From the NCBI GenBank assembly GCA_008632985.1, contig QPGO01000125.1:124001-188000 (forward strand): 64,000 nucleotides of DNA, given 5' to 3'. A program made the position numbers and the translations under genes. The stretch is from Psammoneis japonica. Taxonomy: Eukaryota. The notes below the pieces were generated by a model. That model had not been told where the DNA came from, made no database searches, and saw only the letters and a program-made list of their open reading frames with translations. Below are positions 7,821 to 60,261 of this stretch, one piece after another (positions within the stretch are counted from its first letter, which is position 1; each line of letters begins with the position of its first letter).

Positions 7821-8004
7821 TGTTTCGTCTCGCTCGTTGTTAGGTTGCATGCACAGAGCACCCGGATGCGTCCGTTGAGCGCACACGCCATGGGATGACC
7901 GCGCAGAGTGCCGAGTGCAAGTAAGCGCATTTGCGTCCAAGCACTCGATCGCTCCACGTTGCCATCGAAAAGCCAGTTCGGAGTCGTTGTTATTATCCCG
8001 ATAC

Positions 8005-12665: not shown

Positions 12666-12798
12666 GTCAAGACTCGATTTCATTGACGGCAAAGTGTGAA
12701 GTTCTGGAGAGACAATCACTGCTCGCTCTCACACAAAAAGGACGAGGACATGGTGGGGCTTATGAGTACATGGCATCTTGCAGTCATTATGTCCTAAT

Positions 12799-12973
12799 TG
12801 CAAGATCTAGCTTGAGATGACTTGATAAAAGTTGTGGGAGAACCGAGGAGAGACCCCATCATCGCTGATGCAGCCCAAACCTAACGGTTTCCCGTACATC
12901 TAATACGTTAGTTAACACACATATGTCAGAGAGGGCACACTCGGTCATAGAGTACATGTGCCTATCTCATTCA
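12799..12973 (-). repeat. 3' LTR (175 bp)
   Basis: Aligns without gaps to 18221-18395 with 13 mismatches; TG/CA termini. Confidence 0.96.
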
Positions 12974-12985
12974 CTCTTCCCCTCC
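12974..12985 (-). other. Polypurine tract (GGAGGGGAAGAG) of the LTR element
   Basis: ctcttcccctcc on + strand, directly abutting the 3' LTR. Confidence 0.85.
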
Positions 12986-12999
12986 ATGGTGCAAGGAAC

Positions 13000-15900
13000 A
13001 CGCGCACCATTGGAACCACTCGACTAAAATTCAAAACCCACTGCACACGGAGAAGGGAACCCAGACGTTGGGAAGAAACCCTCAACTCCGACACGGCACC
13101 ACACGGCGAATGTTGATTCGCTCGACAACGTGCGGTGCTCGCAGCACCGAAACAGTCCCGTTGGCATGGACTTGCACAATTCGAAACGGACCACAAGCTC
13201 GTTCTTCCAACTTCGAAGGATCCACCGACTTGATTGATGCATCTTGACCAACTAGACAATCGCAGGAATGTCACTTCGCATTCTGTCATCACAGGTTCTC
13301 GTCAATCAACACTTGTCGGTTGGCTTGTGTCGTTGCGAGATCGGAGACAACAGGCAGGTCCAAAATCACATCACGTTGAAACACCAGAGCTCCACTTGAA
13401 ACACCCGCAGACCTTGAGTGGGAGCATCGCAAAGCATGAGAGGCTGCAGCAAGGGCATCGTCCACAATCTGCTCGGCCTGTTGAACATTTAAAGGTGGGT
13501 TGGCAACAACCACAGCACGCAAGACATCAGCTGCCGTCTGGTGCATTCGTTCACAAATGGAGTTGGCTGCAGGATTTCGAGACGTCGTCGGAGCATCAGC
13601 AATGCCCGCTTGATTCAGTGACATTTGGAATTCCCAACCAATGAATTCTCCACCATTGTCATGGATGCATCAATTCGGTCTGGGACAACGAGCCAACCAA
13701 AGGTTGCGAAACTTGTTGGTCACATGCTGAGAAGTTTTGTTGTCAATGCGCACGAGTTCAGTCAATCCAGTGACAGCATCAATGCAAGTGAGAGCGCTGA
13801 ATTCAATCTCTTGATCTTGAATCGGGATCTTCCACGGTCCAATGAGATCAGCTGCCACTTCCATCCACGGAGCTAAAGGCACTTGACGTTGAGGCAACTC
13901 TCCACATCCAGGGCCTGGTTGTTTAAATCGTTGACACGCATCGCAGACAAATTCATTGCAACGTCGCCGCAATGCAGGATGACACATGTGAGTCCGAATG
14001 CTTTCATGCAATTGCACGACTCCACAATGGCCCAATGCACGATGACACCATGCAATGACATCCGGCAACAACGCAGTGGGGGTGCAAATCTTCCAGGCTC
14101 CAGGCGGATCATTCAACTGCAAACGATGACAAATCAGGGGACGATGGTTCACAATCTTGACCACAAACTGCTGCGGATTTTGTTGTCTTTGCTGGTTCAG
14201 TTGGAGGTCTTCGAACTGGAGCTGTTGGATCCTCAATGTCTCAGTGGGATTCGGCATCTCGTCCAGTGTCGGATGATTCAAAAAGCATTCAAACAATTCA
14301 GGCTCGTCGAGCAGAGAGGAAAAGACGGCGTGAGACTCATCAGAAGGAGCAACAGGAGCACGGCAACACTTGAACCTGCAAGCGCCTAACTCCAAATCTT
14401 CCTCGGCCTTGGCCTTGGAATCCAACTTTTCAAAATGAACAATTTTTCCTTTGCGTTTGCTGCTTGGCCCAAGGCTCCTCCCCTCCGAAGGCGGATCCAT
14501 GCGTGGCAGATGAGAAAAACAATCGGCGAGCACGTCATCCTTGCCTTCGACATGCTTAAACGCAGGCACAAAATCTTTGAGGAACAGGCACCAATGAAGG
14601 ACGCGCTGTGCATTCAAAGTGCGAAAGGTGAGATTTTTGTGATCAGTGTGAACAGTGATGTCAGCACCGAGCAGCATCAAGCGAAATTCTCTGAAGCACA
14701 TGACGACGGCCAGTGGTTCCTTTTCCATTGTCGAACAGTTTCGTTGAGCCGTCAAAAGCTTTTTAGACCAACGCGCCACCGGTTTGCCATCTTGAATGAC
14801 AGCGGCGCCCATCTGGCAGTCTGATGCATCGGTGCAAACATGGAATGGCAGGTTGTGGTCAGGGCAGGCCATCAATGCTTCCACCGTGATTGCTGCTTTC
14901 ATTTCATCGAACACTTTCTGACATGATTCCGTCCATTGGAACTGACTTTTGCCTGTCAATTCAGTCAGAGGTGCAAGCAGGTGAGAACGGCGAGGCCACA
15001 TGTTGCGACAACAAGTTGCTGCACCGAGAAACGATCTGAGTTGAGCAGTGTTCTGTGGAGGTTGCATTCGTGGAATCACTTCGACCTTTTTCTTCCACGG
15101 TTTAACACCAGTCGGAGCAAGCCAATGCCCCAAGAAATCGGTTTCTTGAACACACCACTCGCATTTCAATGGATTGGCTTTCAAACCATTCTCTTCGAGA
15201 CGATGTGGCACCTTGTCAAGACGAGAGAGATGGCAATCAAAGTCAGCATCAAACGCTCCAATGTCATCAACATAAGTTTCGACATCCAAACCATGAAGAA
15301 TCTTTTCAACAATGGACTGAGCAACATCTGGAGCTGGCTTCAATCCCACAGCCATGCGACAGCACTGAAACTTTCCGCAGGGAGTTGCAATCGTGGCGAG
15401 CTCTTTGCTTTCATCGTCCAATTCCAAATTGCAGTAGAACACAGTGAGATCCAATTTCGTGAAGAATTTGTAGCCCGCTCTTCGTTGCAGCACATCTTGA
15501 ATGACCGGCAGAGGACAACCCATCGCACTCGACCGTCCTTCTTCGGAGTGACAAAAGTGCCAGCTGCCCATTCCGCAGGTCCACATGGTCGCAGCACGCC
15601 GAGATTCACCAAGTGCTTCAATTCCTTTTTGAATGCTTCTTCATTAACTCGAGCAACAGGAAACGGTTTTGAGTGACAAGGAACAGCGTTTTCATCCACT
15701 TCAAGGTGCACCTTTTCATGAGGACAGTGGCCCAACGTTCCGTCAAACAAGGTCGAATGCTTTTCCAACACCGCTGGCAGTTTCTTCTTTTGTTCTTCCG
15801 TGAGATGGTCCAGATTCCGAACTGCCTCCGCCGGATCCATTGCTTCATGCTTGGCATCGAGCACACAGGTGTCGCATCCGTCGTCGCATCCGTGGTCTGA

Positions 15901-16605
15901 CTCGTCTTCATGATCTTCATCAAATTCATCCATTCGGTCTAAAGCAACACACCAATTGCAGGACTTGGACCAATGACGAGGCTCCTTCATTGGAATTACA
16001 CGGTCTAACCAACGCAGTGTTCTTGTGTCACAGTTCAAATTGAGGCCAATCTTGTCCAAGAAATCTCGACCCAAAATGACATCATGCGCACACGGAGCAT
16101 CGAACACGTGAGCCACACAGCCGTCAATCCTCTTGGTCTTGTCGAATTCCGGCAACGCAATGTCGCTCAGGGCCACCCAACGACCCGACTGGAAAGGACC
16201 TGCAATGGTTTGAAAAGCTTGGACTCCATGTTCGTCAATGGATGGCACGGCTCCTCGAGGTAAAACTTGAGACGAGATCACAGTGTGAGAACCACCTGAG
16301 TCAAACAAGACACGCATCACACGATTCGACTCATGCCGTTGGATCAATTTTGTAACAAGCAGTGCAGATGGGACCAACGCAGCATGCGAGACTTGCGATT
16401 TCATTTTGGGGAGAGGAATGTGACACTCAAACGCATCTTGATCGAACACGTCCCCCTCTTCATTCATGTAATTTTCTGCAGTGTTTTCAAATTCAACAGG
16501 TGACAATTCGTCAGGATTTTCAAAACAGTCAAAAACAAAACATTCATCATTTCTTTCAGGTAAAACACAATCATTTTCATCAACAAATGCTTCTCTCACA
16601 GGCAA
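13000..16605 (-). pseudogene. pol: Gypsy pol (protease, RT, RNase H, integrase), disrupted
   Basis: VLFDSGGSHT protease. PKKDGRVRWV, FTKLDL and YVDD for RT, with a short deletion after RVRWV. TDASD and TDHKNL for RNase H. HHCC zinc finger, DLIGPW, DNGGEF and NSICERMHQ for integrase. Many Tyr->Cys/His changes and several frame breaks. Confidence 0.93.
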
Positions 16606-16710
16606 TTGGGAGCATTCAGCTCCGGAGCATTCAGCTCCTTCTTCTCAGAACTGCCGAGGAAACTGCCGATCTGGCTGAAACCTCGCCACACCTCCACAAC
16701 GTGGAGGGCC

Positions 16711-17900
16711 TCATCCGATCATGTCGAAATGGTGCACGTCACCACGAGGAGCTTCTCGAGCCTGGTTGTCATTGTTCACATTGTCTGCTTGAGCAGCATG
16801 TCCGTCAGCCTGACCTTGGCCTCCACGGTTGTTGTTTTCATTGCAATGATGCTGACCACCACCTTGGTTGCCATTGTTGTTTTGGTGTCCATTGTTGTCA
16901 TTGTTGTCATGACAGGTGCCACGACCTCCTTGGTTCTGGTCACCACGACCACCAAAGCGTCCACCACCTCCACGGCCTTGTCCACGGCCTCCTTGGAAAT
17001 GACCTCCGCCTCGACCTCCACCGCCACGGCCTCCACCTCGACCGCCACGGTTTTGAGGCCCACGACAGTTGGGATTGTTTGGATTGTCATGACACTGGCC
17101 CCACGCATGCCTTCCATGGTGCCACGGGACCGGACACGGGTCATTCGCCTTTGGTTGGCCCTTGCCATCCTTCTTGTCTCGGTCGCCCTTTTTGTCACTG
17201 GAGTTCCCTCCATTGCCATTGTTGGACTTGCGTTTCTTGTTGTCCTGACCATCGGCGAATGCCTTCTCATTGCTCATGCAGGCTTGGATGTCCACCATCG
17301 AGTTCGTAACAAGGTTCTTGCCCGCACGAATGCAAGACTGCTGCCAGGTCAAAGGGAAGGTGCAGAAGATGACACTTTTCTGCTCCTGCTCTGTAAGTTC
17401 AGGAACGGTTCCAGGCAAACGGTTGGTGTGACGAAACAACGTTTCCGTGTGATCAATGTGTGTTTCCGATTCCGCTGAACAAGGCTTTTTGCAAGTGGGC
17501 AAATGCATCTTCATTGTGTCGCGAGCTGTTGGTTTCACGCAGCGCAAATGATGAGCTGAGATGGCCTGATTAAATCGAGCCACCATCCATTGATTCTGTT
17601 GGACACCCGTGGTGACATTTTGCCATTTCGCCTCTGCAGCACCTTGAAGGCGATCCTTGAAAGCATCAAATAATTCTGGTCCGGTGTCACAGTCGAGCTG
17701 TCTTGCCACCTTCCGGAGCCTGTCCTCCACGTGCAACAATGACTCAATTCCATGCTCTCCTGTAAAAATGGGACACATTTTCGAAAGTTTAGCACCATCA
17801 TCAAAGGTTTGAGCGAGCTTCACTTCCTGCAATTCTGAATCCATGAATTTGGTCTTATGCTCAATGAACGCTTTCTCCAAGGTTTCTTGACACATGGCGA
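16711..17900 (-). pseudogene. gag: Gypsy gag-like ORF
   Basis: Upstream of pol in the same orientation. CPVPWHHGRHAWGQC knuckle-like motif followed by RGG-rich and Asn/Gly-rich tail. Start uncertain. Confidence 0.75.
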
Positions 17901-18220
17901 TGAACAATTTCAGCGACCAAACAATCAACAATCCACAAGATGAACGAAACAAAGTGCTCCCAATTGATCCACACAACGAGAACAATCAACAACCAAACAA
18001 GAACAAATTCAATGGCAGCAACACGAGCTTCGAGTTCAAACAAGCGCTGCTCTGAATCGCCAATTTCACGAGCACAACTGCGCGGCGATTCTGATCGACT
18101 TCAAATGAAATTTTCTGCACGCGCTCGCAAATGGATTTTCTCTCTTCTCGATGACACTCTTCGCGTTGTCATGAAACTGACAATGCAATGAACAAGCCAC
18201 AACAACGACTGCAATTACAG

Positions 18221-18395
18221 TGCAAGATCCAGCTTGAGATGACTTGACAAAAGTTGTGGGAGAACCGAGGAGAGACCCCATCATCGCTGATGCAGCCCAA
18301 ACCCAACGGTTTCCCGCATGTCCAATGCGTTAGTTAACATGCATGTGTCAGAGAGGGCACACTCGGTCATAGAGCACATGTGCCCATCTCATTCA
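18221..18395 (-). repeat. 5' LTR (175 bp)
   Basis: Second copy of the LTR, followed on + strand by TSD CTAAT. Confidence 0.96.
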
Positions 18396-19552
18396 CTAAT
18401 TCCTTGAGACATTGTCATTTCATGATGTGGTGTGACATTCATGATTTTACTTGAGGGGGGTCATCCCCGCGTTTATCCTAAAATTACCGTTGCATTTGAA
18501 CAAGGTTTTTCACAGTGTTTATTTTTGAACACAAGAATTGTTCATAGTCACACCCGATCGCGCACGAAAACGAGAACCATCAGCACCGCGACCGAAGCAC
18601 GACGATGATGACAATCATCGACATTTCTCAAAAACGTAGTTTGCCGTCTACCAACTTTTCATGTGCACACAATCTTTGTTACATGACAAACACAAAATAA
18701 ATAAGAGTTGGTAGACGGACCACCTCCGTCACAGACTTATGGCTTGTTGTTTTCACCACGGTGAAGCACGGTGAAATTCAGGAAAAATCATGCAAAACAC
18801 GAGCTATTCGGCCGAATTCGAGCTAAAAAAAGTAGCAACCGACCACCCTTAAAATTTATAATATGAAACCCATAGTCTACTCGTGAATACCGGTATAAAT
18901 GCAGTACCGGTACATACAATGCGACGTGCGTATGTACTTACTTGTACTGAATGTACAGTACAGTAGCTCTGTGACATTCCGATTAAACTATTTTTAAGCC
19001 CTCAATACAGACATTCTCCACCCAATCACATCAGCCTCGCGTCGGAACTCGAAAGGGGAAAGCTCCCTCTAAATCTAGGTAACTCTACTATCTAGTCGTC
19101 GCTATCTCTAGCTAGAAAGTAAGAGCGGACTAGGTGCCGTAGACTACAAGTTGCCCGAGGCCACAATCTGCTACTGTACAGAGACAATCCTTGGGTTCCT
19201 TTCTACTGTACCGTAAAATATTTACTCGTTGGATAGAGGTTGGTCGACAATACGAGAGGGCATCCAACCCGGCCTGGTCCTATGACTAGATCGGGAGGCC
19301 GTATCCTCTCTAGGCCCTCAAAAGCCTAGCTACTCTAGTGTGGGTGGGGACTTTAAGCGGCCAGAAAAACACTCCACGAAAAGGATTAAGTGTCACTCTC
19401 TAGGAAACAAGCCGTTGAACTTTCATTAGATCTCTCCGGCGGTTACTCAAGCAGAAGGAAAGCGACGCAAACGACTCTTTGCTCCTTTCCTCAAAATGGT
19501 GGTTAAACTAGTTACTGCCCCTCCTCCTCTAGATTTCAGCATCAGTGTGCTT

Positions 19553-46301: not shown

Positions 46302-47078
46302 ATCTTTGTCTCGTGTACAGTCAGGAGGTGTGTTCGATTTGCAAAGAAGAGAAATTGTGGTCCTGCTCTCACTCACATCAATCAATGCGAAGTCAAATAC
46401 ACACGTTCCAACGGCTTCGGGACGACACCTCTTCCCACGAGCTGACTCGCGAACCCTACATCATTGAAAGTAAAGAAACAAAATTTCTTCCGACTCCGAC
46501 GAACAGCCATTCACTGGCTCAGACAGGAGGTGCGTGCTACTACTAGCTAGCTAGCGTGGTCGATGACACTGGCAGTCGGCACGACAGAAATTGCACAGAC
46601 ATTACTGTACGATACGATGATGACCCACTCTCTCTCTCTAGGGCCCTAGTCTAGCTAGAGCTATGCTCGCTACTAGCTAGAGGTCTAGCAATACTACAGT
46701 AGGGCCCTAGACTAGCTCTCGCTAGTAGAGAGTGGGTCCTACAGTGCTCTAGGGCCCTAGAGCTACTGCAGGCAACCTATCTCAAGTGCATCTGTAGGTC
46801 GCAGAGCTTACAAAGTAGGAAGAGATCACTACTAGGATTTAAAAAAGGGAAATAGCAATAATGACCCTGCTCATTCATAATATAAACGTCAAATGTGTAG
46901 GGGAAAATGTAGGAGCGAGTCGTTGGCACTCTTGAGTGTAACGAATGGTTGCAGATATTCGTGTTGAAGGTCTGCCAGCTTTCCAAAACGTGACCATCCA
47001 ACAAAGACTCGCCGATGGCTTGAAAAGCGTCGGTTATCACTCAGTAGACTAAGCGTTTACAGCTCTTCTGAAATAGCA

Positions 47079-47327
47079 TTACTCTTCCAACGATGTTAGC
47101 GAAGAATAAGAAGACTCCAAAGATGATTCGTCTAGTAAGCCCTTCCTTTCCGGACGCATTCTAACGAAGGATGCTTGAGCGCGGAGCCGTTCTTGTTCAA
47201 TGTGGCGTAGCAACAACTTGCGCTTGATCCGACGAAGGCGATTTGACAGCTCTCTAATATCTTGGCTAGTTGCTTCTTCTACCATGGTAGGCACTTGACT
47301 GGCTTCGGCGTAATTCATACTCGTCAT
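47079..47327 (-). CDS. Small 82-aa protein, paralog of 46025-46301
   Basis: QDIRELSNRLRRIKRKLLLRHIEQ and tail SSLTSLEE. Confidence 0.55.
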   Translation of the reverse strand: MTSMNYAEASQVPTMVEEATSQDIRELSNRLRRIKRKLLLRHIEQERLRAQASFVRMRPERKGLLDESSLESSYSSLTSLEE

Positions 47328-47921
47328 GATGGATGATGGATTGGAAGTGAACAGCGATGCGATGCACCTTTTCTTTTCTCTTTTTGTGAGCGGCTCTGTG
47401 GCGTTGGGAAAAGAGGAGGCGAACTGTTATCCTATTCTACGTAGGAACCAGTACATATCTGAGTATGTAGCTGCCTGTAACCTCTCATAATCGGGTAATA
47501 ACTTATGTCTATCATTGAATAAGATATTTGATGTTCTAGTGACGTTCTTGTTGAAGTTGAGTTTATTCAATATATATGTCTGAAGCAATTAATTCAAAAT
47601 TTGGAACTCGTTTAACGGCAAAACATTCTGAATAACGGTAAATAACTGTAGATATCGATAGTCGATCGACGGAATCACTTTCAACGCGTAGGCAGCATAT
47701 GTGATTTCGTATGTAGTCTCATACCAGGAATGCAGTAGCCAACTGATGTTCTTCTGATGTTCTTGTTGAATTTGAGTTTATGCAATGCTCAGATATGAAG
47801 CAAATGAATAAAAATTTGGGCGGCAAAAAAGTTATTCGCGCAAACGTCAAAATAACCGCATGTTTGAGTTTTATTCCATTGGCAGAGCTCCAGACGACAT
47901 CAATGACCACGAACTAGCTAG

Positions 47922-50900
47922 ACTCTGAACATCGAACCGACAGCCAACAATCAAGTTTCGTTTTGTCGGTGCTTCCAGCGCCAGGAGCACTGTTTGTTGC
48001 TGGCACTCAGCCATGTGTCACACCGTGCAAGTGTGGCACATTGCAAAACTGTCAGGAGGGAGATGAGCCAAGCATTTGAAAGACGTGTGTTCGTCAGAAA
48101 AACGCGAATGCTGAGATTGAAGGACATGCTGCATTTGTCCTTTTTCCACCACTGTGCACTTTCTTGCGCAAGAAAATCTGGCTGATTTTCTCCCATCAAT
48201 TTTTTGTTGCTTCATTTTTCAGATCTGGTTGATGCTTTGAAGTGTCAGCCAGCGCCGCTGTTCTTCTTGATTGCTTGGAGCATCTGTGCAAAAAAAAAAA
48301 AGGTTTTGGTCGGAAGAAGCTGATCATGGCTGCTTTTGCTGCACTTTTGAACTTCTTTTTTTTGTTTCTCTTCCATCAAGCCTGGTTGTTTTTGACAACA
48401 ACGGAAGTCGTTCAAAAATGTTGCAAAAGCCGCCACAATTGACACTTTGTGTTGTGTGAGGGAAAAAAGACAAAATCATGTGGAAATGCACAAAAAAGCC
48501 ATGTGAGAGGGTGGTTGGAGCTGCCAACTTTTTGGGAACTCAACTGAAATTTCATCTGATCAAAGGTGCTTTGACTTGCATGGTGAAGAGCGACACCTTT
48601 GACCAGACAACATCTCAGTTGATTTCCAAGAAATTGACATTCCAGCAGGGATGGGCAGAGAGACTGGCAGCAGTTGTTTCTGGCGGGCACTCTTTCACAC
48701 AATTTCTGCACAATGACTCTGAGAGCCACAATGACTCCCGTCATTCCCACCTTTTTCACAGCAGAAAGAGCTCATGCCGGAAAAGAGCAGCACTCTCTAA
48801 CTCCATTTTTCACAACAAAAATTGCAAAAACTGAGACTTCACACAACAAGTGCACTTGATGTGTGGCTGCAGTTGCTTCAAAAAGATGCAGCTGATTTGT
48901 GGTGTGTCAGTTTTGCATTGGGGCTGAAACAGCAGTGCCAAAGTTTGATGAGTGCAGAGCAACTGAGCTGTTTGAAATGCAGAAGCAGGGGCAACAACAG
49001 GGTGTTGGCAATGTGTGAGAAGAGAAAAAAAAGGTGTGTCAAAAACACAGTGAGTTGAAAAGCTGGTCAGTCAGGAGCCCCCCTCAAGAAGCATCAAAAA
49101 CACCATTGCACCAGTCAAAAAAGCCCACTTGCTTGCTGCTGCATTGCGGCCTTCACAGCTCTGACAGCCTGCCCCTTGTTTTTCAGGCCACAGCTCCTGT
49201 GGCATGGGGCCATTTTTGAGGTGTGCGCAATTTGTGATGTGAGAGACATGAAAAAAATCTTCTTTGATTTGGAGCTCAACTGCCCCATGTGGAGGGCTGA
49301 CTCAGCACCAAACGCAATGATGCACAGAAAATTTTGCAATTTGTCCAATGTTTTGCACAGCATGAGAACACACCTTGAGCCAAATTTTGCTTTGCTCAAA
49401 CTGGAGGGGACCCCTTTCTCTTTCTGAAGATGACAATGCATGCACTGTGCTCTCATGCACCAGCACTCTTGTGACTCTCTTCTTGATCATCCCAAGATCA
49501 AATTGCTGGGCCCTGTGCACATGCACTCACACACTGCATCACTTGTCCTTGTTCCTGGCAAATCACAAAAGGCCCAGGCATTCTGCACAAAACTGTGTCA
49601 AGAGCTGGCACTCTCCTGCATCACCCCAGCTGCAGCGAGCTCTGCCTCTTGCACCAAGCTCAGTGCCAAATGTGCACAAAAAGGCAGGTGGTTGCAAAGC
49701 TTGTTGTTGACTGTGGCTGTGGGACAATTTTTGAGTTGTCACACCATTTTTCTCTGTGCAACATTCAGTTGGCTGCATTGTGCACTGCTCACTTGATGCT
49801 CAAAAAGTGCGAGCTGGTCTGTCCACAACAAAAGGGCTGTCACTCCAAGCTCATTTGAGGGGTCTTTGTGAAACCACATGATGACACATGGCTTGGTGCA
49901 CAACAAAGTTTTTGCACACTTGGCACAACTTTGGGTGGCAACCAAATGTTTGACCCTGCTTGTGATGTGGGTTCTTCATTCACAGCTGGAAGCTGCACAA
50001 TGACCACACCAGCACATCTGCTCATCAGAGAAGAAGCGCAAGTGTGTGGACATGCACAAAATGGCTGTGCTCATTTCTGCCCCATGCTTTGCACAGCTGT
50101 TGCATGGAAAGCTTGCATTGCAACATGTTTGCTGGTGTTTTCCAGCTGTTGGCATGGCCCATGTTGCATGCTCTCCCACAACATGGGCTGCAGAGCTCCT
50201 GACAGGTGCAATCTGCCACAGATTTGTGTTTCATTGCACCATCTTGTGGGTGCAGTGTGCCTCTGTTGTTTTCATGGACAACTCTTGTGGGGCACGGACA
50301 ACAGTCAGCTCCACATTCAGCAACTCTTTGTTCTTGTTTGACAAGTGCCAAATGCTCTGCAATGCACCATTCTGCTTGCGTTTTTTCAAAATGGCCCAGC
50401 TGGGGGTGACACCAGCCAGCTGTCTGCTTCTGCAGCAATGTTGTGCTGAGAGAGACTGTTTCATCTTGGTTGCAACCAGCTGTTTGGCTGACATTTCTGG
50501 CCCTGCAGAAAAAAAGCTTCTGCAGAGGTCAAGGCAGCTTCTGGCATTTCCTCAACTTTTGGGCCACACTTGGTTTCCATGGGGTGGTTGAGAGGGCCAA
50601 GACAACTCAGCATGCGCCCACCACAACCAAGCTGTGTGATGATGTCCCCCCCAGCATGCCACAACTTGTTGGACCCCTGTTCCTTGCATGCTGTTGTTGT
50701 GTGTGCAAACACATCATGGTGTGCTTGGTGCGGAAGACTTCACATGCAAGGTCATCAGTGCACACCAGCACACACCAGCCAAGGATGATGGACCTGAATC
50801 ATTTGGACAGCCCAGCTGAGCACAAAACCAAGCTTTCTCCAACAAAAAGCTTCTGGCCAACTGTCTTGCAACAAAGCTTCTCCAAGTTGACGCGTGAGCC

Positions 50901-53640
50901 ACACCTTGGCACATGCCCTTCAAATGGCTGTCAAGATCCAGGTGCACAAGCAAAACTTTCACAGTGTTTTTGATGCAGCATCTTTGTTGCACACCTGCCC
51001 CCCTGCCCAGAAGCCTCACCTGAAATGTCCAAATGGCACAACCAAACATCTCACATGAAGAATCAACCATTCCCACAAATGTGAGTGAACAGCTTTTTTC
51101 CCCTTTTGTTTGTTGATGATCTGCTCTGCTGCTTTTTGACCTTTTCAGATGACAGCCAAATGCCTTGTTTTGTGTCCCAACAACCAAGGTGCTTTGGCCA
51201 AGTTTGGCAAGCACCAGCTTGACAGTTTCTTGCAGTGTGTTGGTGCCAGCCACAACATCATGTTGTTTCTCAAGATGACTTTCAAAGGACCCCTTTGTTG
51301 CCCTCAGCGAGTCATCCAGACCACCAGATGCAATGTTTCTCTTGAAATGTGGCTGGCATGTTGCGCTGGCCAGCTTTGGCAAACATTGCAACTCATGCTT
51401 TTCCTCAGAAGAAAAATCAAGGAGTCCAAAGTTTCCAGTGGCGCGCCATGCCAAACCAAACAAGTTGAGGAAAGCTGCCCACCAGATGTTCCTGAGCTTC
51501 AGCGGCAGATCAAACCCCAGCCCTTTTTCAGACAGTGACAAATGCCAGTGCTGCCCACTCCAATCTGGCATTTGCTGCTGCAGCCACTTGCAATCAAAAG
51601 CTCCTTGAGCTTGTTCAGCTCCTCTGATGTTTTGCTTTTCTCTCTTGGTGGCTTCCATGTCTTGAGCACATGTTCTTGACCACTGCTTTGACAACGACAG
51701 TGCTCAAATCTTGGTGGTCATTCTTTTCTTTTCATCTGCAATTGACAATGTGTTGCTCTTGTTTTTTTTGCCATTTGCTTCAAATTGTTGTGCTCTTTGG
51801 TCAAGTGCCTGCAACTGGCACAGTGCAAAACATGCCAGATCTGAGTTTTTCTCTCTTCTCATGAGTGATCTCAGACACTCCTGTCTGTTTTTTCCATCTC
51901 TGCACATGTGCAGAATCTTCTTTTCTTTGGTGCATTTTTGAGGTCCAGCTCTTTGTTGGTGGCTTTGAAATGAGCCCTCAAATTCCTTGTGAGCACCGCA
52001 CAGTGCCCCACCAAGCATTTGGCACTCTGCTCTCAAGCAAATCTGCTGACACATTGTCCAGCCCCTCCTTCAGCTCCTGGAGGAAAATCCCCTGGGCAGC
52101 TGCTCAACTCAGCAGCCCTTGTGATGCAGAGTCTCAGGCTCTCACACAATTGTCTCTGCGTCTTTTCATGGAGTGCCCCAAGTGTCACTTTTGCAGCACA
52201 GCACTGTGCTCCTTGGGAAAACTCTTTTCATCACCACATCTGCACTCTCTCCGTGCATCCAATGTTGGTCTTTGCAGCAAGCTCTGTCACTTTGTTGTTG
52301 AGTGTTGTCAGAGCATTCCTGCTCTCTGACATCCTCCAGATGAATGCAGGTGCTTTTCCAGCCCAGCAATGATGTTTTGTTCTTGTGGATGACATGCTCC
52401 TTTAAGCTGTGCAGTGGGAAGAGCAGCTGCTCTTTGTGCTCTGCACTCCAGCACACTGGGGCACAGCATGGTTCAGCTTGCCCACTGGGCTGTCTCTGTG
52501 CACTTGCAAGTTGCTCATCTTGTGCATCTGATGCTTGCCCTTTGCTTGCAGCTCCTGCATTTCAACAAGCATTGCTGAACAGCATTGTTGGCTTCAGCAG
52601 GTTTCTCTGCACACACTTGCACCAGGTGCAGTGCCGCTGTTCCCTGCATGCCAAATTTGGCAACAAACAACCATTGACAAAAATTGCAAGACCATTTTCT
52701 GAGTGCAAAACATTTGGTCACATGAGTTGCACAATCTGCTTGCACATGAGCGTGGGCTTCTCTCATCCACCTGTGAACAGCGGCAAAAGGGTTCTTCGCT
52801 TCAGGCTTGTTGCAAGACTTGGTGAGTGCAGCGTGGCACGCAGCTTGGGTGCAAAGTCTTTTTCCTGCATTTGAGGGACCTTGGGGAGCAGTTGAGTGTG
52901 CAGCCCTTGTGATGTGGGTTTGCTCATGGCTGGGCACAATGGCACAAATGTGCATTTGCTCAGTTGAGTGAGTGTGGGTCGTGTGCACATGGCACATGCT
53001 GCTCATGCTGCACACACACTTTCCACTGCAAAAAGCACTTGTGTCAACACAAAATGCTTGTTGCTGTTGTGAGGAGGACAGGAGTGCATGCTGCTGATCA
53101 TTGAACTCTTTGCCACCACAGACAATGGCTGCAGGATTGTTTTGCAGCTGGCTTGCCAACGTGCTCCTGGTCTGTCTGCAAGCTGTCCCAAAGATCGCCA
53201 TGTGTCGAAAGATGATTTTGTTGCTGTGGTGGCTGCACTCAACTGGGTTTGATCTTGCTCAATCAAAAATGATTTGAGCTGCACCAAGAAAACTCATGAT
53301 GCGTGTGATGGTCATGGAGTCTGCCCAGGCTTTGTCCAAACCATCAACCAGGTTCATGTGGTGCTGGGCGGAACATCCCATTGTCTGAATGTTCTTTGCT
53401 CTTGCCCGCTGTTGACAACCAACATGTCTCAAGCACAGGTGTCAGTGGTTCATTTGTTGAGGTTCTTGCACCTGTCAGAAGCTGAGCATTCTTTTGCTGG
53501 CAAACTTTGACTGGACAATGGCTGGCTCATGGTCACAAAAGGAGCACAAAAAAGTTTCACCTGCAGTGTGGAGAATTGGTGGTGGCAACAAGGATCTGAT
53601 TCATTCAAGACTCACAAAATTGTGAGGCTGCAGGGCTGAT
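47922..53640. mobile_element. Degenerate repeat/transposon-derived block, almost free of TpA and poor in CpG; family not identifiable
   Basis: Only two TpA found by eye in ~5.7 kb (~48798, ~52403). TG/CA-rich, no recognisable protein motifs, no clear termini. TE origin is inferred from its compositional similarity to the mutated LTR element. Confidence 0.55.
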
Positions 53641-54087
53641 TTACCCTCTGGGTTGCTGTTTTAGTGGGCATGAGCAGTGGTTGTGACAAGTTTCATCTGC
53701 AAAACATGATGGTTTGAATGTTTTTGAGCTTTTAAAGGACAACCGTCTCGGAAATGCATGGATTTGAAATGGGCAGCTGCATTTCGGTTGGAGGGGAGGA
53801 GCCCCCCTCTGCTCGATTTGCCTGGTTGTTTCACTTTCGGTCAAAAGAGATGCTATTTTTTGCTTTTTGAATTTCACCACATAGTCGATGATATGGAACA
53901 GTCGTCCTCTGAGCGAGAAAACAATTAGCACCAATCAGATCCGTGTTGTAACATCTCTCATCATGATGTACCGTAGTTCATGGATGTAATGCAAGTCAAG
54001 CGGGACTTGTGAGTCACTTGCTGATTGCTGCAATCGGTGGTCTGCTCTGTCTTGTTTGTTTACAGTTATTCAATTTCTAACGCTAAC

Positions 54088-55113
54088 TCACACAGTCCCC
54101 GAGTCGTCATCTAGATTCCTGAGTTTACCGTCAAAAAAGTCCCAGATTATATGTCGAGCAGTCCAAAATATAAGCGAGTGCTCGGTGGTGCCCGCCCAGA
54201 TTGTTCGGATGCCCCCGAAGCGACGTGTCCACCAAATATCAGTTTCCGCCTCTTGACCCAATTTTCTATTCCTGTGATCTTGAAACGTGTCACATGGACG
54301 AGTTGACGTGTTTCGAACGTACAAGCACCTGGGCGACTGCAAAAGATCACGAAGTGGCGGGTCATTCCGTACCCACTGAATGTTGTGTGTTGAATCCGTA
54401 AAGGCGATACTAATGTCCTGACGAAGCGCAACTCCGTGTGACTTGCTTCCCAAGTGAAGATAGCGTACAAAGAAACCACCTGCAGCTGAATGAGCTAGTA
54501 CATACAACGGGGAGCCCTTCCAACCCACGAAAAGCGTGTTGAGAGATTTTTCAATAGTATCCATGCTATTTTGAATCCCCCGAGCGTTCGGATCAAGCAG
54601 AACAACTGCCAACCCTAGCTTCTTCGCTTCGAAAATGTGGAACATTGCAGAGCCGACTTCCATTCCAGAGGTAACAAGTTGCTTGAATGAAAGTACACCT
54701 AATCGCGACTTTCCCTTTCCAGTGATTATGAGAAGAGTCGGCTGTTGCGTTGTGTAGGCTTCGTCAACCCAGGCCTTTACCGGCTCGCCTCGTGATGGGT
54801 CGTCACAGATAGTTACTTCTTTCAATGGGAATGTCCTCAGAATCCGTTCTTGCGCAATCTCTTGACAAACACCCACGACCTCATCAAACATGGCGCCATC
54901 AAGAATATACTGCTTCCGATTGTCGGCAGTAATAAGACTTCCCGAAGCTATGTGAAACAGACGTGTAACGCAATCAAAGCATGGAGGCGTTTCTTCGCTG
55001 CTGCGACCGTCAGTGGCATGCGTCTTGCAGGGAATGAGACGGTACTCAAATCCCATGTCACATAATCCACCTGCTCGTCTTACAGTATACGGCACTTGCT
55101 TTTCAGGATCCAT
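54088..55113 (-). CDS. Arb2/FAM172-like alpha/beta-hydrolase-fold protein
   Basis: LLIITGKGKSRLG, G-x-EVGS, AVVLLDPN, YVLAHSAAG, IAFTDSTH, WAGTTEHS. Confidence 0.75.
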   Translation of the reverse strand: MDPEKQVPYTVRRAGGLCDMGFEYRLIPCKTHATDGRSSEETPPCFDCVTRLFHIASGSLITADNRKQYILDGAMFDEVVGVCQEIAQERILRTFPLKEVTICDDPSRGEPVKAWVDEAYTTQQPTLLIITGKGKSRLGVLSFKQLVTSGMEVGSAMFHIFEAKKLGLAVVLLDPNARGIQNSMDTIEKSLNTLFVGWKGSPLYVLAHSAAGGFFVRYLHLGSKSHGVALRQDISIAFTDSTHNIQWVRNDPPLRDLLQSPRCLYVRNTSTRPCDTFQDHRNRKLGQEAETDIWWTRRFGGIRTIWAGTTEHSLIFWTARHIIWDFFDGKLRNLDDDSGTV

Positions 55114-55726
55114 GCCTATCGAAACAGCGCTTCACATGGCGTCAACATACAAAACACACACCACACGGATGGTATGCAGTAGGGCCCTACCTATGACCTA
55201 TGAAGTACGGTATGAAGTATGAGCCGCTTGTCAGCCAGTCTGTCTGGGTTTCGATCACGGTGCTCTAGCTATTACAAGCTGGGGGGCTTACCTCAAGCTC
55301 TACTCTTTCCAATCATCTCTCAACTTGGATTTCCTACTATAATCTCTTGCTCACATCCCTGAGAGTAGTAGAGAGATTCCCCGAAATTTTTGCCAGATGA
55401 TCCTGCGGACGATCTAGACTCTAGAGCCTCTAGATTCATTTCCTAAATATGTACTGTTGCGTAGAACTAAGCACTTCAATGTATGACAAAGTAGTCGTCA
55501 GGATCAATCATATTGGGAGCAAAAGTGCTACATCACAGTCCCTGGCGTCAAGCGCCAAGCGAAGCGAAGCGGAGAACCGGCAGCCATGGACTTCGCAATG
55601 CCATAGGCAATGCTTTGCAACCGAAAAGGAATAGACAAACACCAATACACCACCAGGTGTGAAACTATTACATTCATTATGTCACAGACATGACGAAGCC
55701 TACTGAATCACGAAGCCTTAAAACAT

Positions 55727-57034: not shown

Positions 57035-57297
57035 AGTGCCAGTACCTATCAACAAACTGCAAATAGCCTGTTCTCCTGCATATATTCCACTCTGTAACGT
57101 CGTTGAACAAGCACAGCGAGGAAGAGAACACAAACGCAGTCGTGTGATGTGGTTGGACGGAAGTGCTGAGTGCTCGAGCAGAGTGAACTTCCAAAGCAAA
57201 TTTGTCAATTTGTCGGATTCCGGTAAAGATTTCATGCTCGTGGCTGGTTAACGACAAGCCCATAGCCCAATCTCTTTGTCTGACTTCGAGCCAAAGT

Positions 57298-57415
57298 AAG
57301 CTAAATGGTTAGTGTAAATCGTTAAGTGTCATTTCCACTTCGACACAAAGAAAGCTAAATGGTTAGTGTAAATCGTTAAGTGTCATTTCCACTTCCATAC
57401 AAAGACAGCTAAATG
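57298..57415. repeat. Tandem repeat, 54-bp period, ~2.2 copies
   Basis: aagctaaatggttagtgtaaatcgttaagtgtcatttccacttc at 57298 and 57352; partial third copy at ~57407. Confidence 0.92.
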
Positions 57416-57839
57416 CTTAACGGTAGTGGTCAGATTTCAAAATCTGAGCAATACAGAAATGTCAATGATGAATAAGGATTTTAGATTGCTTCTGCCGTAA
57501 ATATCATTACGCCAATGCCACTAATGAATTCACAAATGAATTTGTATTCCATCCTTTTCCTGAACTTTGATCTATCGGCATTTTCGATACGAGTGCTCGA
57601 CGCGATGACAATGAGGCATGCTTGTATGTGTCATGGCCATAAGCTGTGAGGCGTACCGTCACATTTGGATTGAACTCGGGGATCTTGATGTCGAAAGTAG
57701 CCATTTGTTTGACATTCGTGATTTTTCATCGCCCACAAACTGGGATTTCAACTGAGTCGAGTTGATGTTGGACGTGTTTCAAAGCACTGCGTTTGATGAA
57801 ACAATTGAGGGCTCTGGAATTATGGCATTTTATGCCATG

Positions 57840-59850
57840 GAGACTTAAAACAGCAAATGGGTTGACAATCAAGCAGTGATCGGGTTTGCCAACATTTCCA
57901 AAAATGTGACAACAAAAGTTGCATCACTCAACAACCAACAACATCTCAAGAGATGGAAACAAGAAAAGTGACTCCTCTTTGCACTTGAATTAAAAGAGAC
58001 AACAATGCACAACAAACATTTGAGAAGGACAAGAAGCTCTTGAATGCATGGAACCAGAAGAGAGTCAATGAATCGCTCTTGTTTTGAACCTCTTGACCTG
58101 TTCTGTCCATGATGGTGGTTGGCTGAAAGGTTGGTGGTGGTTTTTTTGTGTGACTTGCAGCTTGAGGCATGTTGATGCATGAACACATGGCCCATGTGTG
58201 GTGTCACCTTTGGAAAGTGCCACTTGTGGAGCTTGAGTGGACAACTCTCTGTGCTCAAGCTTTGTCCGCCAAATGCTCCATCAAAGTCCAGATGATGCTG
58301 CCACATCCCACCCGACCATTGACACAAAACAGTTCTTGCAAAATGTTGTTGCCCATTTCCCTCTTCCTCTGCAGAGCAGCCCTCTTGGTGACAGTGCTGC
58401 CCACATGCCAGAATGTGCTCAAGAATGCTTTCCATTTTGCCAGCAAAGATGCCCAACGCGGGGCTGTGTGGGCTCGAATCTCTCTCAAGACAAGCTGACA
58501 TTTGTGCCTGGCACTGGCGGCAATGCTCAGCCCTCCTTCCTGTTTGACTTCCCAGGAGTGTGCCCAGATCTCCTGCGTGCTGAGTGGCTCAACCACAAGA
58601 GTCACTGTCTTTGTCAGTTTTGTCAGCAGGATGTGCCAAGGCTGCTCTGGCCATGTGTGCGCAAGGACAGCTGCGACAGTGCTTTCTGCTGTCAGCAAAG
58701 AGTGTGAGCTGGCTGGACTGCCCAACCCCACACTTCACAGCTCCTTGGCAGTCACTCCAAATCAAGTGCCAACTTGGGGTCAACCGCACCTGGCTGGTTG
58801 CAATGCAAAGACAGCTGTGGCAGCACTTTGTGACAACAAAGAGAGTGCGAGCTGGCTGGGCTCCCAACCCCACACTTCACAGCCCCTCAGCACTGGATCC
58901 CAATCAAATGCCAACTTGGGGCCAATGGCTGTGAAGCCATCATTGCAAATCCCTGTGCCTGCCCCCTCACACAGCTTTGCACAGGGTCAACATTTGTGGC
59001 CTTTGCAAGATGGGCCCTGGCTGGCTGCTGGCTCTTCAGCCACACGGCTTGCACAACAAGCCACCACAACACAGAGCACTGTGGGGTGAGTGCAGCACAG
59101 CCCAAACAAGCACACCATGCTGAGATCACCCAGAGTTGGCTGCTGTCCTGGGGCTCCATTCAAAGCTGGGCTGGGCTGCTTGGCTCCTTGGTGTGCAGCA
59201 CATGCTTGGCATCACATTCTTGTTGCCAAGCAGCCACATGGCATGTGCCCACCATTTGTGCCTGCAACAGTGACCCCAGCCACAAAGAAGCCAACAAAAA
59301 GTTGAACCTGGTTTTGTGGTTGAAGAGTGAAGAAACTGTGAGTGAAGTTTGGTTCAAGATTTGTTGGCAATGCCAAGTGGGCAACCAAAGAGAGGCGCCA
59401 AAAATGGCCATTCTCGCTCATTTCTCAAGAGGAGCTTGCGCTCATGATGCAGGGTCTGAAGCAAGCACCAGCCAAGACAACAGTTTTTTCTCTCTGCCCC
59501 ACTTAAAACACAGCCTTTGAGTCAATGTGGTGCTCCTTCAACAACTCACGCACACTGGGAAGAGCAGCTGGAGCCAGGGCAGCTGGCCTGGCAGGGCTTG
59601 GCTGACACCCAAGCTGGGCTGCTCAGCCTGGTGGCACACACTCAGTGCCACATTGTCACCCTCCTGCAACTGCAATGTGCCCCACTCTTTGCACCTGCAG
59701 CAACCACCCTGGATCAAAAGAAGCCAGTGCAACTCTGGCCATGGTTGCATGGTCAATTGTGTGTGTGTGTTCAACGGTTGATTCCCCTCTTTTTTTCTCT
59801 TTTCCTTTAACCGGCCACGAACATGAAAAAATTGCCGAAACTTCCCTTGA
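57840..59850. mobile_element. Second degenerate TpA-depleted, CpG-poor repeat-like block with an internal ~85-bp duplication
   Basis: The only TpAs seen are four TTAA sites (~57846, 57991, 59504, 59807). Internal repeat 58699-58783 vs 58842-58925. Confidence 0.5.
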
Positions 59851-60261
59851 TAGCTTACGTAAGTAGAATTCTAAATAGGAAATGTATTGATACCGGTTTT
59901 GTCGGTGGTCACCCTCTTTTTGATGAGTTGCCTTCGCGCGATCTTGCAATCTGATGAGTTGCATTCCGGAGTGTTCTTCTACTACTACTAGCTAGTAGTA
60001 GTAGCTAGTAGATCATCTATTCTTCCTACTAACAGAAGTCTCGCTCTCTACTAGTAGTAGTCAAGCTATTGCGCTTCTCTAGAGAGCTAGATCTCTCTAG
60101 ATGGGCATGGAAAAGTCCTAATTGTAGCTAATAACATACTTTTTCTTCTTTACATACTATTTTTTGTCGGTCGCTGTCTCTCGAAAGGGAGAGACTGGGT
60201 AGTATGTCTGTACGGTAAGAACTAGTGTTCTATGAAAATGCCTACTACTCTCTCTATAGAC

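What the first reader, a model, noticed from the sequence alone, without database searches (positions are those of the whole stretch)
47922..53640. 5.7-kb end-state desert lacking TpA and depleted of CpG
Seen: about two TpA in 5.7 kb, few CpG and dense TG/CA (tgtgca, cacaa). The left edge is abrupt, right after CTAGCTAG (~47914-47921), and the right edge is graded. The Gypsy copy lacks TpA but keeps abundant CpG. Established: diatom TEs carry CpG methylation, and 5mC decays to TG/CA. Inference: two mutational clocks both funnel into TG/CA. TpA loss is fast and CpG decay slower, so this block is an older repeat scrambled beyond recognition.
Basis: partly seen in the sequence, partly recalled or inferred. 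Interest (0 to 1): 0.75.

Follow-up and report, generated by a model that had tools for sequence, protein, structure and literature searches.

The report
TpA-erased, CpG-decayed silent DNA in diatom
A 5.7-kb stretch of diatom DNA has lost nearly every TA and most CG steps, most likely through a fast local TA-to-TG/CA hypermutation, so far reported only from an unrelated alga, plus slower decay of methylated CG.

Summary
Window 47922-53640 has 2 TpA (about 233 expected) and 55 CpG (about 325 expected). The TG+CA surplus (+510) balances the TA+CG deficit (-501).

The direction and timing of the TpA loss are shown by the Gypsy element at 12799-18395, not by the block itself. Its two 175-bp LTRs differ at 13 positions, and all 13 lie in TpA sites (TA versus CA/TG). 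All 6 CpG are intact. At 18 conserved Tyr columns, 12 now read Cys (TAY to TGY). The TpA loss therefore happened after integration, on DNA, and far faster than ordinary mutation or CpG decay.

The same TpA-only signature was reported in 2026 for integrated viral DNA in the chlorarachniophyte Bigelowiella natans. This window's genes are diatom genes, and my searches found no diatom report.

Details seen here:
- Surviving TpA are YTAR, mostly TTAA.
- Strand bias is strong in the Gypsy and absent in the block.
- In the block, 5 of 9 differences from an independent DNA run are CpG/TpG/CpA transitions.

The block is single-copy at 80% identity or more. It has no Pfam domain, no homologues and almost no coding periodicity. 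I rate it a new member of a known kind, interest 0.62.

The parts
47922..53641 (.). Main TA-free, CpG-poor block (the finding). It has 2 surviving TpA, at 48798 (CTAA) and 52403 (TTAA).
   Evidence: Dinucleotide counts are. X1 depth is about 60, the same as the flanking genes. No Pfam domain and no repeat structure.
47914..47921 (.). CTAGCTAG at the abrupt left edge. It holds the last two TpA before the block.
47922..48780 (.). Left margin where TpA is already absent but CpG falls off only gradually. There are 10 CG in the first 185 bp.
   Evidence: CG and TA positions.
48525..48740 (.). Short multi-copy repeat embedded in the block, with an imperfect inverted repeat. Other copies differ from this one by an adjacent TG to CA double change at 48567-48568.
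   Evidence: depth 900-3300, 25-34 contigs, loose ends at 48690 and 48738.
52515..53258 (-). Open frame of 247 codons. It is the only part of the block with gene-like period-3 and codon-position purine pattern, so it may be a coding remnant. No relatives were found.
   Evidence: ORF; the second-longest ORF in 500 shuffles reached 247 aa in 4%; periodicity; no family, no homologue.
12799..12973 (-). 3' LTR of the Gypsy element. It is largely spared, keeping 12 TpA.
12974..18220 (-). Gypsy internal region (gag, protease, RT, RNase H, integrase zinc finger). TpA o/e is about 0.09 and CpG is kept.
   Evidence: Pfam, counts, Tyr to Cys substitutions.
18221..18395 (-). 5' LTR of the Gypsy element. 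11 of 14 ancestral TpA are converted (7 to CA, 4 to TG). All 6 CpG are kept.
18396..18400 (.). Target-site duplication CTAAT. Its twin is at 12794-12798. It still holds its TpA, so editing stops at the element's end.
   Evidence: Flank sequences printed.
57847..59807 (.). Second TA-free, CpG-poor block. Its survivors are two TTAA (57991 and 59504). It lies inside a high-copy 2613-bp unit, 57222-59834.
   Evidence: counts; summed depth about 7000 against 60, and a joint 57221 to 59835 that skips 2613 bp.

Best explanation
The block is a delimited, probably silenced piece of diatom DNA of unknown origin that two local mutational processes have driven to a compositional end state.

(1) A fast hypermutation acts on DNA in place and turns TpA into TpG or CpA, that is, A to G on one strand or the other. 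It is confined to a sharply bounded domain. It works less well when T or C stands two bases 5' of the target A, so the last survivors are TTAA or CTAA. The most likely chemistry is deamination of adenine to inosine in DNA by a polynucleotide deaminase. This step is inferred, not shown.

(2) Slower decay of methylated CpG produces TpG/CpA.

Both processes funnel the two self-complementary pyrimidine-purine steps into TG/CA. TG and CA readily mutate back to TA, so the near-total absence of TA implies one of two things: either the TpA process has kept acting on the block for as long as the CpG decay took, or the whole conversion is recent.

Shown: the direction, the TpA specificity, the post-integration timing and the relative speed, all in the neighbouring Gypsy copy; and the balanced dinucleotide budget in the block.

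Inferred: that the block underwent the same process, the enzyme, the methylation, and the silencing.
For: 1. Budget. The TA+CG deficit (501) matches the TG+CA surplus (510). Converting TA and CG to TG/CA in silico in the window's own background reproduces CA/TG o/e of 1.88-1.90 against the observed 1.90/1.84. The profile correlation is 0.95, against 0.73-0.76 unconverted.

2. Gypsy LTR pair. Two 175-bp LTRs sit between CTAAT target-site duplications. They differ at 13 positions making up 11 dinucleotide sites, all TpA-derived: 9 sites are TA versus CA/TG and 2 are CA versus TG. There is no other difference, and 6 of 6 CpG are kept. The change therefore came after integration, on DNA.

3. Tyr columns. 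Against 30 homologues (the best 30 of the 120 listed), 18 Tyr columns are conserved. In the window copy they read Cys 12, His 1, Arg 1, Phe 1 and unchanged 3. There are also Leu to Pro (CCA) three times and Val to Ala (GCA) three times.

4. Relatives. The 80 related Gypsy loci from metagenomes have TpA o/e of 0.43-1.06, against 0.09 here.

5. Context. 28 of 31 surviving TpA in the Gypsy have a purine 3' of the TpA on the + strand, against 910 of 2029 in the background (p = 3e-7). All 4 survivors in the two end-state blocks are YTAA.

6. Separability. The Gypsy has lost TpA but not CpG. The left 200 bp of the block likewise.

7. CpG decay. In the block, 5 of 9 differences between the window and X1 contigs are CG/TG/CA transitions, including one TG/CA double. 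A sixth is a transversion at a CpG. The flank has 0 of 4.

8. Precedent. TpA to TpG/CpA hypermutation of integrated, partly single-copy viral DNA was measured in mutation-accumulation lines of Bigelowiella natans (bioRxiv 10.64898/2026.01.13.699255; Results and Discussion read). [quoted passage not shown]

9. Diatom TEs are the main targets of CG methylation (PMC9998398, passages).
Against: - For the block itself no ancestral or sister copy was found. The direction of change there rests on the budget and on analogy with the Gypsy copy.
- The two-process simulation does not reproduce the block's low ApT (0.71 against 0.93) or its high GpC (1.43 against 1.09-1.13). Either the ancestor had an unusual composition or a further process acts.
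- Methylation, chromatin state and expression were not measurable.
- The CpG polymorphism count is small (9 differences). X1 may also be the sample the window was assembled from, so those differences may be alleles.
- No de novo TpA change was seen between the window and X1. That is expected, because no TpA targets are left in the block, but it means ongoing editing is not demonstrated.
- The 80 metagenome relatives are the best-scoring of 560 and so are biased towards intact copies.
- The deaminase is pure inference.
Confidence: 0.66

Rival explanations
1. One clock, not two. A single enzymatic hypermutation removes both TpA (A to G) and CpG (C to T), for example a deaminase acting on both A and C in DNA. 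The block would then be neither old nor dependent on methylation.
For: - Both losses are nearly complete and co-extensive in the core of the block and in block2.
- The B. natans preprint cites ADAT2 enzymes that deaminate both A and C in DNA.
- The absence of re-created TpA is easiest to explain if the conversion is recent.
Against: - The Gypsy copy has lost 87% of its TpA while keeping CpG at o/e 0.82, and 6 of 6 LTR CpG are kept.
- The block's left 200 bp are TA-free with normal CpG.
- CpG/TpG differences still segregate between the window and X1, as slow decay would give.
- In B. natans the hypermutation was reported on TpA only.
Confidence: 0.15
2. The composition is functional. TA and CG are kept out by selection, for example in a long non-coding RNA, a structural chromatin element, or to avoid a TA- or CG-reading nuclease or transposon target.
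For: - The block is single-copy and sits between genes.
- Two open frames are slightly longer than shuffles give (p about 0.03-0.04).
- One 0.9-kb part has a gene-like period-3 signal.
Against: - The same composition occurs in a dead Gypsy copy, where it destroys conserved Tyr residues, and in an unrelated high-copy element.
- There is no Rfam family, no Pfam domain and no homologue.
- The budget fits plain conversion of ordinary DNA.
- The differences from X1 are concentrated at CpG sites, as decay would give.
Confidence: 0.07
3. RNA-level editing. A-to-I hyperediting of transcripts, ADAR-like, is fixed in the genome by reverse transcription, so the marks predate integration.
For: - The Gypsy shows a strong bias for A to G on the sense strand: Tyr to Cys 12 against Tyr to His 1, and CA surplus 177 against TG surplus 33 on the + strand.
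- A 5' U preference is typical of ADAR. This is stated in the preprint's Discussion.
Against: - The two LTRs are made from one template at reverse transcription, yet they differ at 11 TpA sites, and at 2 of those sites both are changed in opposite senses.
- The block shows no strand bias (TG 690, CA 641) and no retroelement features.
- In B. natans the changes arise in place in integrated DNA.
Confidence: 0.04

Closest known systems
TpA-specific hypermutation of integrated viral DNA in Bigelowiella natans (Mettrop et al., bioRxiv 10.64898/2026.01.13.699255, 2026; Results and Discussion read)
   Same: - Changes are almost only A to G / T to C, and only at TpA.
- They are confined to delimited stretches of non-host DNA.
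- Single-copy targets are possible.
- The long-term footprint is low TpA with high CpA+TpG in runs of 1-kb windows.
- RT and DDE domains are enriched among TpA-poor genes.
   Different: - The host here is a diatom (Stramenopila), not a chlorarachniophyte (Rhizaria).
- The targets seen here are an LTR retrotransposon, a high-copy element and a block of unknown origin, not a giant virus or virophage.
- Depletion here is near total (o/e 0.01, against 0.45 for their NCLDV region).
- It is coupled with CpG loss, which that paper does not mention (0 occurrences of 'CpG').
- The -2 context and the variable strand bias are not in its main text.
- No live mutation rate was measured here.
Repeat-induced point mutation (RIP) of ascomycete fungi
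   Same: A DNA-level, dinucleotide-specific, transition-only process that acts after integration. It inactivates transposons within sharp borders and can be strand-biased within one element.
   Different: The direction is opposite. RIP turns CpA/TpG into TpA and makes DNA AT-rich; here TpA becomes TpG/CpA. RIP needs duplicated sequence, whereas the main block is single-copy at 80% identity or more. The properties of RIP are recalled from general knowledge and from the preprint's Discussion.
Decay of methylated CpG (5-methylcytosine deamination) in silenced transposons; CG methylation of diatom TEs maintained by DNMT5a (PMC9998398)
   Same: CpG o/e falls to 0.05-0.17 with a matching TpG/CpA gain. 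CpG/TpG differences segregate between the two sequence sources.
   Different: Methylation of this block was not measured. CpG decay alone cannot remove TpA.
ADAR hyperediting and APOBEC editing of retroelements in animals
   Same: Deaminase-type, clustered, context-dependent transitions that cripple retroelements. ADAR also prefers a 5' U.
   Different: Those act on RNA or on nascent cDNA before integration, and APOBEC gives G to A. Here the LTR pair shows change after integration, and a domain with no retroelement features is also affected.

Membership tests
TpA-targeted hypermutation of integrated DNA (B. natans type) | Substitutions are almost exclusively A to G / T to C and fall on TpA | tested here: met
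   In the Gypsy LTR pair, 13 of 13 differing positions lie in TpA-derived sites. Conserved Tyr columns read Cys in 12 of 18.
TpA-targeted hypermutation of integrated DNA (B. natans type) | Confined to a delimited domain, with flanks at normal TpA | tested here: met
   The borders are 47921/47922 and about 53642. For the Gypsy they are 12974 and 18395, with the TpA in the target-site duplication kept. For block2 they are 57847-59807.
TpA-targeted hypermutation of integrated DNA (B. natans type) | [quoted passage not shown] | tested here: met
   Six consecutive windows, 48001-53001, have TpA 0.00-0.15 and mean CA/TG o/e 1.70-2.03. The thresholds are that genome's 5% cut-offs, so the transfer to this genome is approximate.
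TpA-targeted hypermutation of integrated DNA (B. natans type) | Target is of foreign origin (virus or transposon) | tested here: inconclusive
   Met for the Gypsy copy (Pfam) and for the high-copy element. The main block has no recognisable origin.
TpA-targeted hypermutation of integrated DNA (B. natans type) | Arises de novo in culture at about 1e-7 to 1e-6 per site per generation | not testable with these tools
   This needs mutation-accumulation lines or dated strains.
Fungal RIP | C to T at CpA, giving a TpA gain and AT enrichment | tested here: not met
   TpA is lost, not gained. The block's GC is 48%, like its surroundings.
Fungal RIP | Requires duplicated sequence | tested here: not met
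   The block is at single-copy depth at 80% identity or more in run X1, apart from two short patches. More diverged copies cannot be excluded.
Methylated-CpG decay | CpG deficit balanced by TpG/CpA, with segregating CpG/TpG differences | tested here: met
   CpG o/e is 0.17. 5 of 9 window-versus-X1 differences in the block are CG/TG/CA transitions.
Methylated-CpG decay | The region carries 5-methylcytosine | not testable with these tools
   No methylome is available. The support from the literature is general to diatoms only (PMC9998398).
Pre-integration RNA/cDNA editing (ADAR/APOBEC type) | Both LTRs carry the same edits, because they are copied from one template | tested here: not met
   The LTRs differ at 11 TpA sites.

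The most novel reading that the evidence does not exclude
Diatoms run a DNA-level adenine-editing genome defence that mirrors fungal RIP. It targets silenced DNA, whether or not it is repeated, within sharp chromatin-like borders, and prefers A in RTA over YTA. It keeps acting for as long as the DNA stays marked. Together with CpG methylation it drives any targeted sequence to a TA-free, CG-free attractor.

The same TpA-only signature occurs in a rhizarian alga. The system would then be old and widespread in the SAR supergroup (stramenopiles, alveolates, rhizarians), and could date and map silenced DNA in any such genome from sequence alone.
Probability: 0.4. Interest if true: 0.85.

Novelty: new member of a known kind. 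Interest (0 to 1): 0.62.

Why it matters
TpA-only hypermutation of integrated DNA has so far been reported once, in a 2026 preprint on a chlorarachniophyte. Finding its footprint in a diatom, a different supergroup branch and an ecologically dominant one, would mean the process is not a curiosity of one alga.

The Gypsy LTR pair gives sequence-only proof that the change happens on DNA after integration. The survivor context (TTAA/CTAA) and the variable strand bias are concrete constraints on the enzyme. Together they suggest a simple genome-wide assay: score LTR-pair differences at TpA against CpG against all other sites.

There are two practical consequences:
- LTR-divergence dating in such genomes will be badly inflated unless TpA sites are masked.
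- Repeat finders and gene callers will miss or mis-call fully converted DNA. TA-free sequence has no TAA or TAG stops and throws up long false ORFs.

Tried and rejected
- Earlier notes of this scan: none for this genome or for similar sequence. A word search gave only unrelated phage and organelle cases.
- Six-frame read-through (stops as X) of the block and block2 against Pfam: nothing. The one ComK match, at 20.4 bits, is below its cut-off.
- Transition-blind (purine/pyrimidine) BLAST of the block against the whole window, both strands: no score above the reversed-sequence controls. So no LTR or TIR, and no kinship to the Gypsy or to block2.
- 329-codon ORF (50714-51703, minus strand): phmmer against 1.84 billion representatives gave one hit, a bacterial protein with 28 DUF11 repeats. 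Its score is the sum of many weak repeat matches, and the ORF itself has no DUF11 match. I rejected it as spurious. The scan of viral contigs found nothing.
- 247-codon ORF (52515-53258, minus strand): the protein-atlas best score was 0.76, a non-match. There was no homologue among 52 candidates, and only lengths of 135-431 aa were searched. The viral-contig scan gave no locus.
- Rfam at gathering thresholds on 47000-60500: 0 matches.
- Expression: no RNA holder is listed for this stretch. Run X2 has no contigs on the block although it covers the flanking genes.
- Search for hypermutated relatives: the 80 metagenome Gypsy loci show none with TpA o/e below 0.43. They are the best-scoring 80 of 560, so edited copies may have been filtered out.
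- Third mutational signature: I considered that low ApT/GAT and high GpC/AGC might mark one. The deviations from the simulation are shared by the block and block2 (r = 0.79). The simulated ancestor is mostly coding DNA, so a coding-versus-non-coding difference could explain them. Left open.
- Literature: searches found the B. natans preprint and nothing on TpA loss in diatoms. Subscription journals are not covered.
- ended with a script error after printing its main tables. The one missing row, gene 54088-55131, was covered.

Full report
**1. The observation**

Window 47922-53640 (5719 bp) holds 2 TpA (o/e 0.01), 55 CpG (o/e 0.17), 690 TpG (1.84) and 641 CpA (1.90). The TA-free runs are 879, 3605 and 1239 bp.

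The window's ordinary part, 19000-47000, has TA 1142, CG 1593, TG 2010 and CA 2010 in 28 kb. Scaled to 5719 bp this predicts about 233 TA, 325 CG and 821 TG+CA. The block therefore lacks 501 TA+CG and has 510 extra TG+CA (my arithmetic). The two losses are quantitatively accounted for by the gain.

The left edge is abrupt. The last TAs are 47915 and 47919, inside CTAGCTAG. On the right, TA returns at 53642 and CG at 53744, so that edge is only mildly graded.

What really is graded is CpG on the left. There are ten CpG in 47933-48105, where TpA is already absent, and CpG then thins over about 800 bp.

Contigs of an independent DNA run (X1) cover the block and both flanks continuously at depth 57-73. 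The sequence is therefore not an assembly artefact.

**2. Other blocks of the same kind in the window**

- 57847-59807 has two TpA left and CpG o/e about 0.15.
- The Gypsy element has 27 TpA in 13000-18000 (o/e 0.09) but 252 CpG (o/e 0.82). Pfam finds aspartyl protease, RT, RNase H and integrase zinc-finger domains on the minus strand.

**3. What the Gypsy copy proves**

Its LTRs are 12799-12973 and 18221-18395. They run TG...CA and are flanked by the 5-bp target-site duplication CTAAT.

The two LTRs were identical at integration. They now differ at 13 positions, which make up 11 dinucleotide sites:
- At nine sites the 3' LTR has TA where the 5' LTR has CA (7 sites) or TG (2 sites).
- At two sites one LTR has CA and the other TG, so both were hit, on opposite strands.

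No other position differs, and all 6 CpG are intact. Hence the change is specific to TpA, occurred on DNA after integration, and is far faster than both ordinary substitution and CpG decay.

The direction is fixed by the proteins. I aligned the pol frame with 30 homologues, the best 30 of the 120 listed. Of 18 conserved Tyr columns, the window copy reads Cys at 12 (TGY), His at 1, Arg at 1 and Phe at 1, and 3 are unchanged. There are also three Leu to Pro (CCA) and three Val to Ala (GCA) substitutions.

Eighty related Gypsy loci from metagenomes have TpA o/e of 0.43-1.06, so the family is not TA-poor by nature. These are the 80 best of 560 confirmed matches and are biased towards intact copies.

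**4. Anatomy of the process**

*(a) Strand.* In the Gypsy, A to G falls mostly on the sense strand. Tyr to Cys outnumbers Tyr to His 12 to 1. On the + strand the CA surplus is about 177 and the TG surplus about 33 (my arithmetic). In the block TG and CA are nearly equal (690 and 641). The bias is therefore local, perhaps set by transcription or replication direction, and not intrinsic to the process.

*(b) Context.* Of the 31 TpA that survive in the Gypsy, 28 have a purine 3' of the TpA on the + strand, against 910 of 2029 in the background (p = 3e-7). In other words, T or C stands two bases 5' of the adenine on the preferentially edited strand. The four survivors in the two fully converted blocks are CTAA, TTAA, TTAA and TTAA, which are resistant on both strands. 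The preference is relative, because some YTAR sites in the 5' LTR were converted.

*(c) Domain.* Editing covers the 5' LTR and the interior and stops at the element's outer end, since the TpA in the target-site duplication is kept. It largely spares the 3' LTR, where only 2 of 14 sites are changed. That LTR abuts the presumed promoter side of the neighbouring minus-strand ORF 10828-12417. This pattern does not fit simple coupling to transcription from the LTR promoter. A chromatin-type border is my inference.

**5. CpG**

In the block, the X1 contig that spans 48710-57221 differs from the window at 13 positions. Nine are in the block (8 events) and four are in the 3.6-kb flank. Of the nine:
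- 49016, 50369 and 52010 have TG/CA in the window and CG in X1.
- 53302 is the reverse.
- 53154-53155 is TG against CA.
- 49148 is a transversion at a CpG.

None of the four flank differences is a CpG transition. The numbers are small, and X1 may be the sample the window came from. Still, the pattern is what ongoing decay of methylated CpG gives. TEs are the main targets of CG methylation in diatoms (PMC9998398, passages read).

The losses are separable. The Gypsy copy, and the block's left margin, have lost TpA but not CpG.

**6. Sufficiency and a gap**

I converted TA and CG to TG/CA at random in the window's own background. This reproduces the block's CA/TG o/e (1.88-1.90 simulated, 1.90/1.84 observed) and raises the correlation of the 16-dinucleotide profile from 0.73-0.76 to 0.95.

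It does not reproduce low ApT (0.71 against 0.93), high GpC (1.43 against 1.09-1.13), or low GA/TC. The trinucleotide deviations are shared by the block and block2 (r = 0.79). They may reflect non-coding ancestry, or a further and slower process. I leave this open.

**7. What the block was**

This is unknown.
- At 80% identity or more it sits at single-copy depth, except for a roughly 200-bp repeat at 48525-48740 (25-34 contigs) and a weaker patch in 50236-50702.
- At 48567-48568, 12 contigs carry CA where the window has TG. This is the double change expected when copies resolve one ancestral TA or CG independently.
- There is no LTR, TIR or internal repeat, even in a transition-blind comparison.
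- Six-frame read-through finds no Pfam domain.
- The period-3 signal is at intergenic level: RY median 0.5, against 3.7-8.9 for four of five genes (the fifth, 33093-34922, scores 0.9) and 2.3 for the Gypsy. The exception is 52.5-53.4 kb, where a 247-codon minus-strand frame has a gene-like purine pattern.
- That frame and the 329-codon frame are only marginally longer than shuffles give (4% and 3% of 500 shuffles), and neither has a credible relative.

A Gypsy-like element that had merely been converted should still be recognisable, because the converted Gypsy copy scores 1e-22 in Pfam. The block is therefore not a recently converted autonomous element.

An old repeat whose copies have drifted below 80% identity is not excluded. 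It is also not needed, because in B. natans the main target is single-copy.

**8. Persistence (inference)**

TG and CA revert to TA by the commonest kind of substitution, and the block has 1331 such sites. If CpG decay took long enough to remove 83-95% of CpG, dozens of new TpA should have appeared. Only two TpA are present, both in the resistant context. Either the TpA process has kept acting on the block throughout, or CpG loss was also fast (the one-clock rival).

**9. Comparison with what is known**

A 2026 preprint (bioRxiv 10.64898/2026.01.13.699255; outline, Results and Discussion read) reports hypermutation in mutation-accumulation lines of Bigelowiella natans. The rate is about 6e-7 per site per generation and the changes are almost exclusively A to G / T to C on TpA. 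Two integrated viral regions are affected, one of them single-copy. The paper also reports 124 genomic clusters of TpA-poor, CpA+TpG-rich 1-kb windows, enrichment of RT and DDE domains among TpA-poor genes, and an ADAT2-like candidate deaminase. It does not mention CpG, diatoms or retrotransposons.

The window is not from that organism. The best named relatives of its MiaB-type gene are all diatoms (Seminavis and Cylindrotheca 65%; Amphora, Nitzschia and others lower).

Eight literature searches found no description of TpA loss in diatoms. Subscription journals are not covered.

Fungal RIP is the nearest classical analogue, but it runs in the opposite direction and needs duplication. ADAR- or APOBEC-type editing before integration is excluded for the Gypsy copy by the LTR asymmetry.

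**10. Verdict**

The TpA clock is a known kind of process, described once and very recently, seen here in a new lineage.

This window adds sequence-only proof that the process acts after integration, a survivor motif, a variable strand bias, and the coupling with CpG decay that produces a TA/CG-free end state.

I rate it a new member of a known kind, interest 0.62.

Noticed in passing
window 12799-12973 versus 18221-18395: Only the 5' LTR and the interior of the Gypsy copy are edited. The 3' LTR lies next to the start side of the minus-strand ORF 10828-12417 and keeps 12 of its 14 TpA. The editing domain therefore does not equal the element. It may be cut short by the neighbour's active chromatin.
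   Followed up: partly
window 57222-59834: A 2613-bp unit has a summed contig depth of about 7000, against 60 for its surroundings. One X1 contig joins 57221 to 59835 across it (an empty or alternative site, with 9 other letters between). Several contigs join its end back to its start with 1-6 letters between, which suggests head-to-tail copies or circles. Its left 0.6 kb has normal TpA and CpG, and one 211-bp piece there is identical at depth 3043. Its core is TA/CG-free and diverged among copies.
   Followed up: partly
window 56269-56372: A contig of run X2, labelled 'DNA?', skips 102 bp with ends CT..AC, which is GT..AG on the minus strand. This lies inside the RING-finger ORF 55727-57247. 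It looks like a spliced intron, so X2 may hold cDNA-like material.
   Followed up: no
window 47922-53641 and 57847-59807: Both end-state blocks share low ApT (0.71 and 0.69) and high GpC (1.43 and 1.33), with low GAT/ATC and high AGC/GCT. The TA/CG conversion model does not reproduce this, and the young Gypsy copy lacks it (ApT 0.96, GpC 1.01).
   Followed up: partly
window 6975-7990: A GC-rich (about 58%), strongly purine-skewed stretch with TpA o/e 0.19 and two overlapping minus-strand ORFs (415 and 362 codons) that have no Pfam match. It is unclear whether this is partial TpA editing or just composition.
   Followed up: no
window 54088-55131 (minus strand): The gene directly right of the block has a weak, sub-threshold Arb2-domain match (22.8 bits, cut-off 26.8). 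Arb2 proteins are linked to small-RNA silencing in fission yeast (recalled, not from any call). This is probably coincidence.
   Followed up: no
window 57283-57419 and 58661-58925: There is a 54-bp tandem repeat (2.5 copies, 91%) in the TA-normal arm of the high-copy unit. A roughly 144-bp tandem pair (79%) lies in its TA-free core, and its two copies differ several times by TG against CA.
   Followed up: partly
loci L072, L019, L001/L002 (metagenome Gypsy relatives): A few relatives have the lowest TpA (o/e 0.43-0.60) together with raised CA/TG (1.26-1.44). In L001/L002 TG is well above CA. They may be partly edited copies in other organisms.
   Followed up: no
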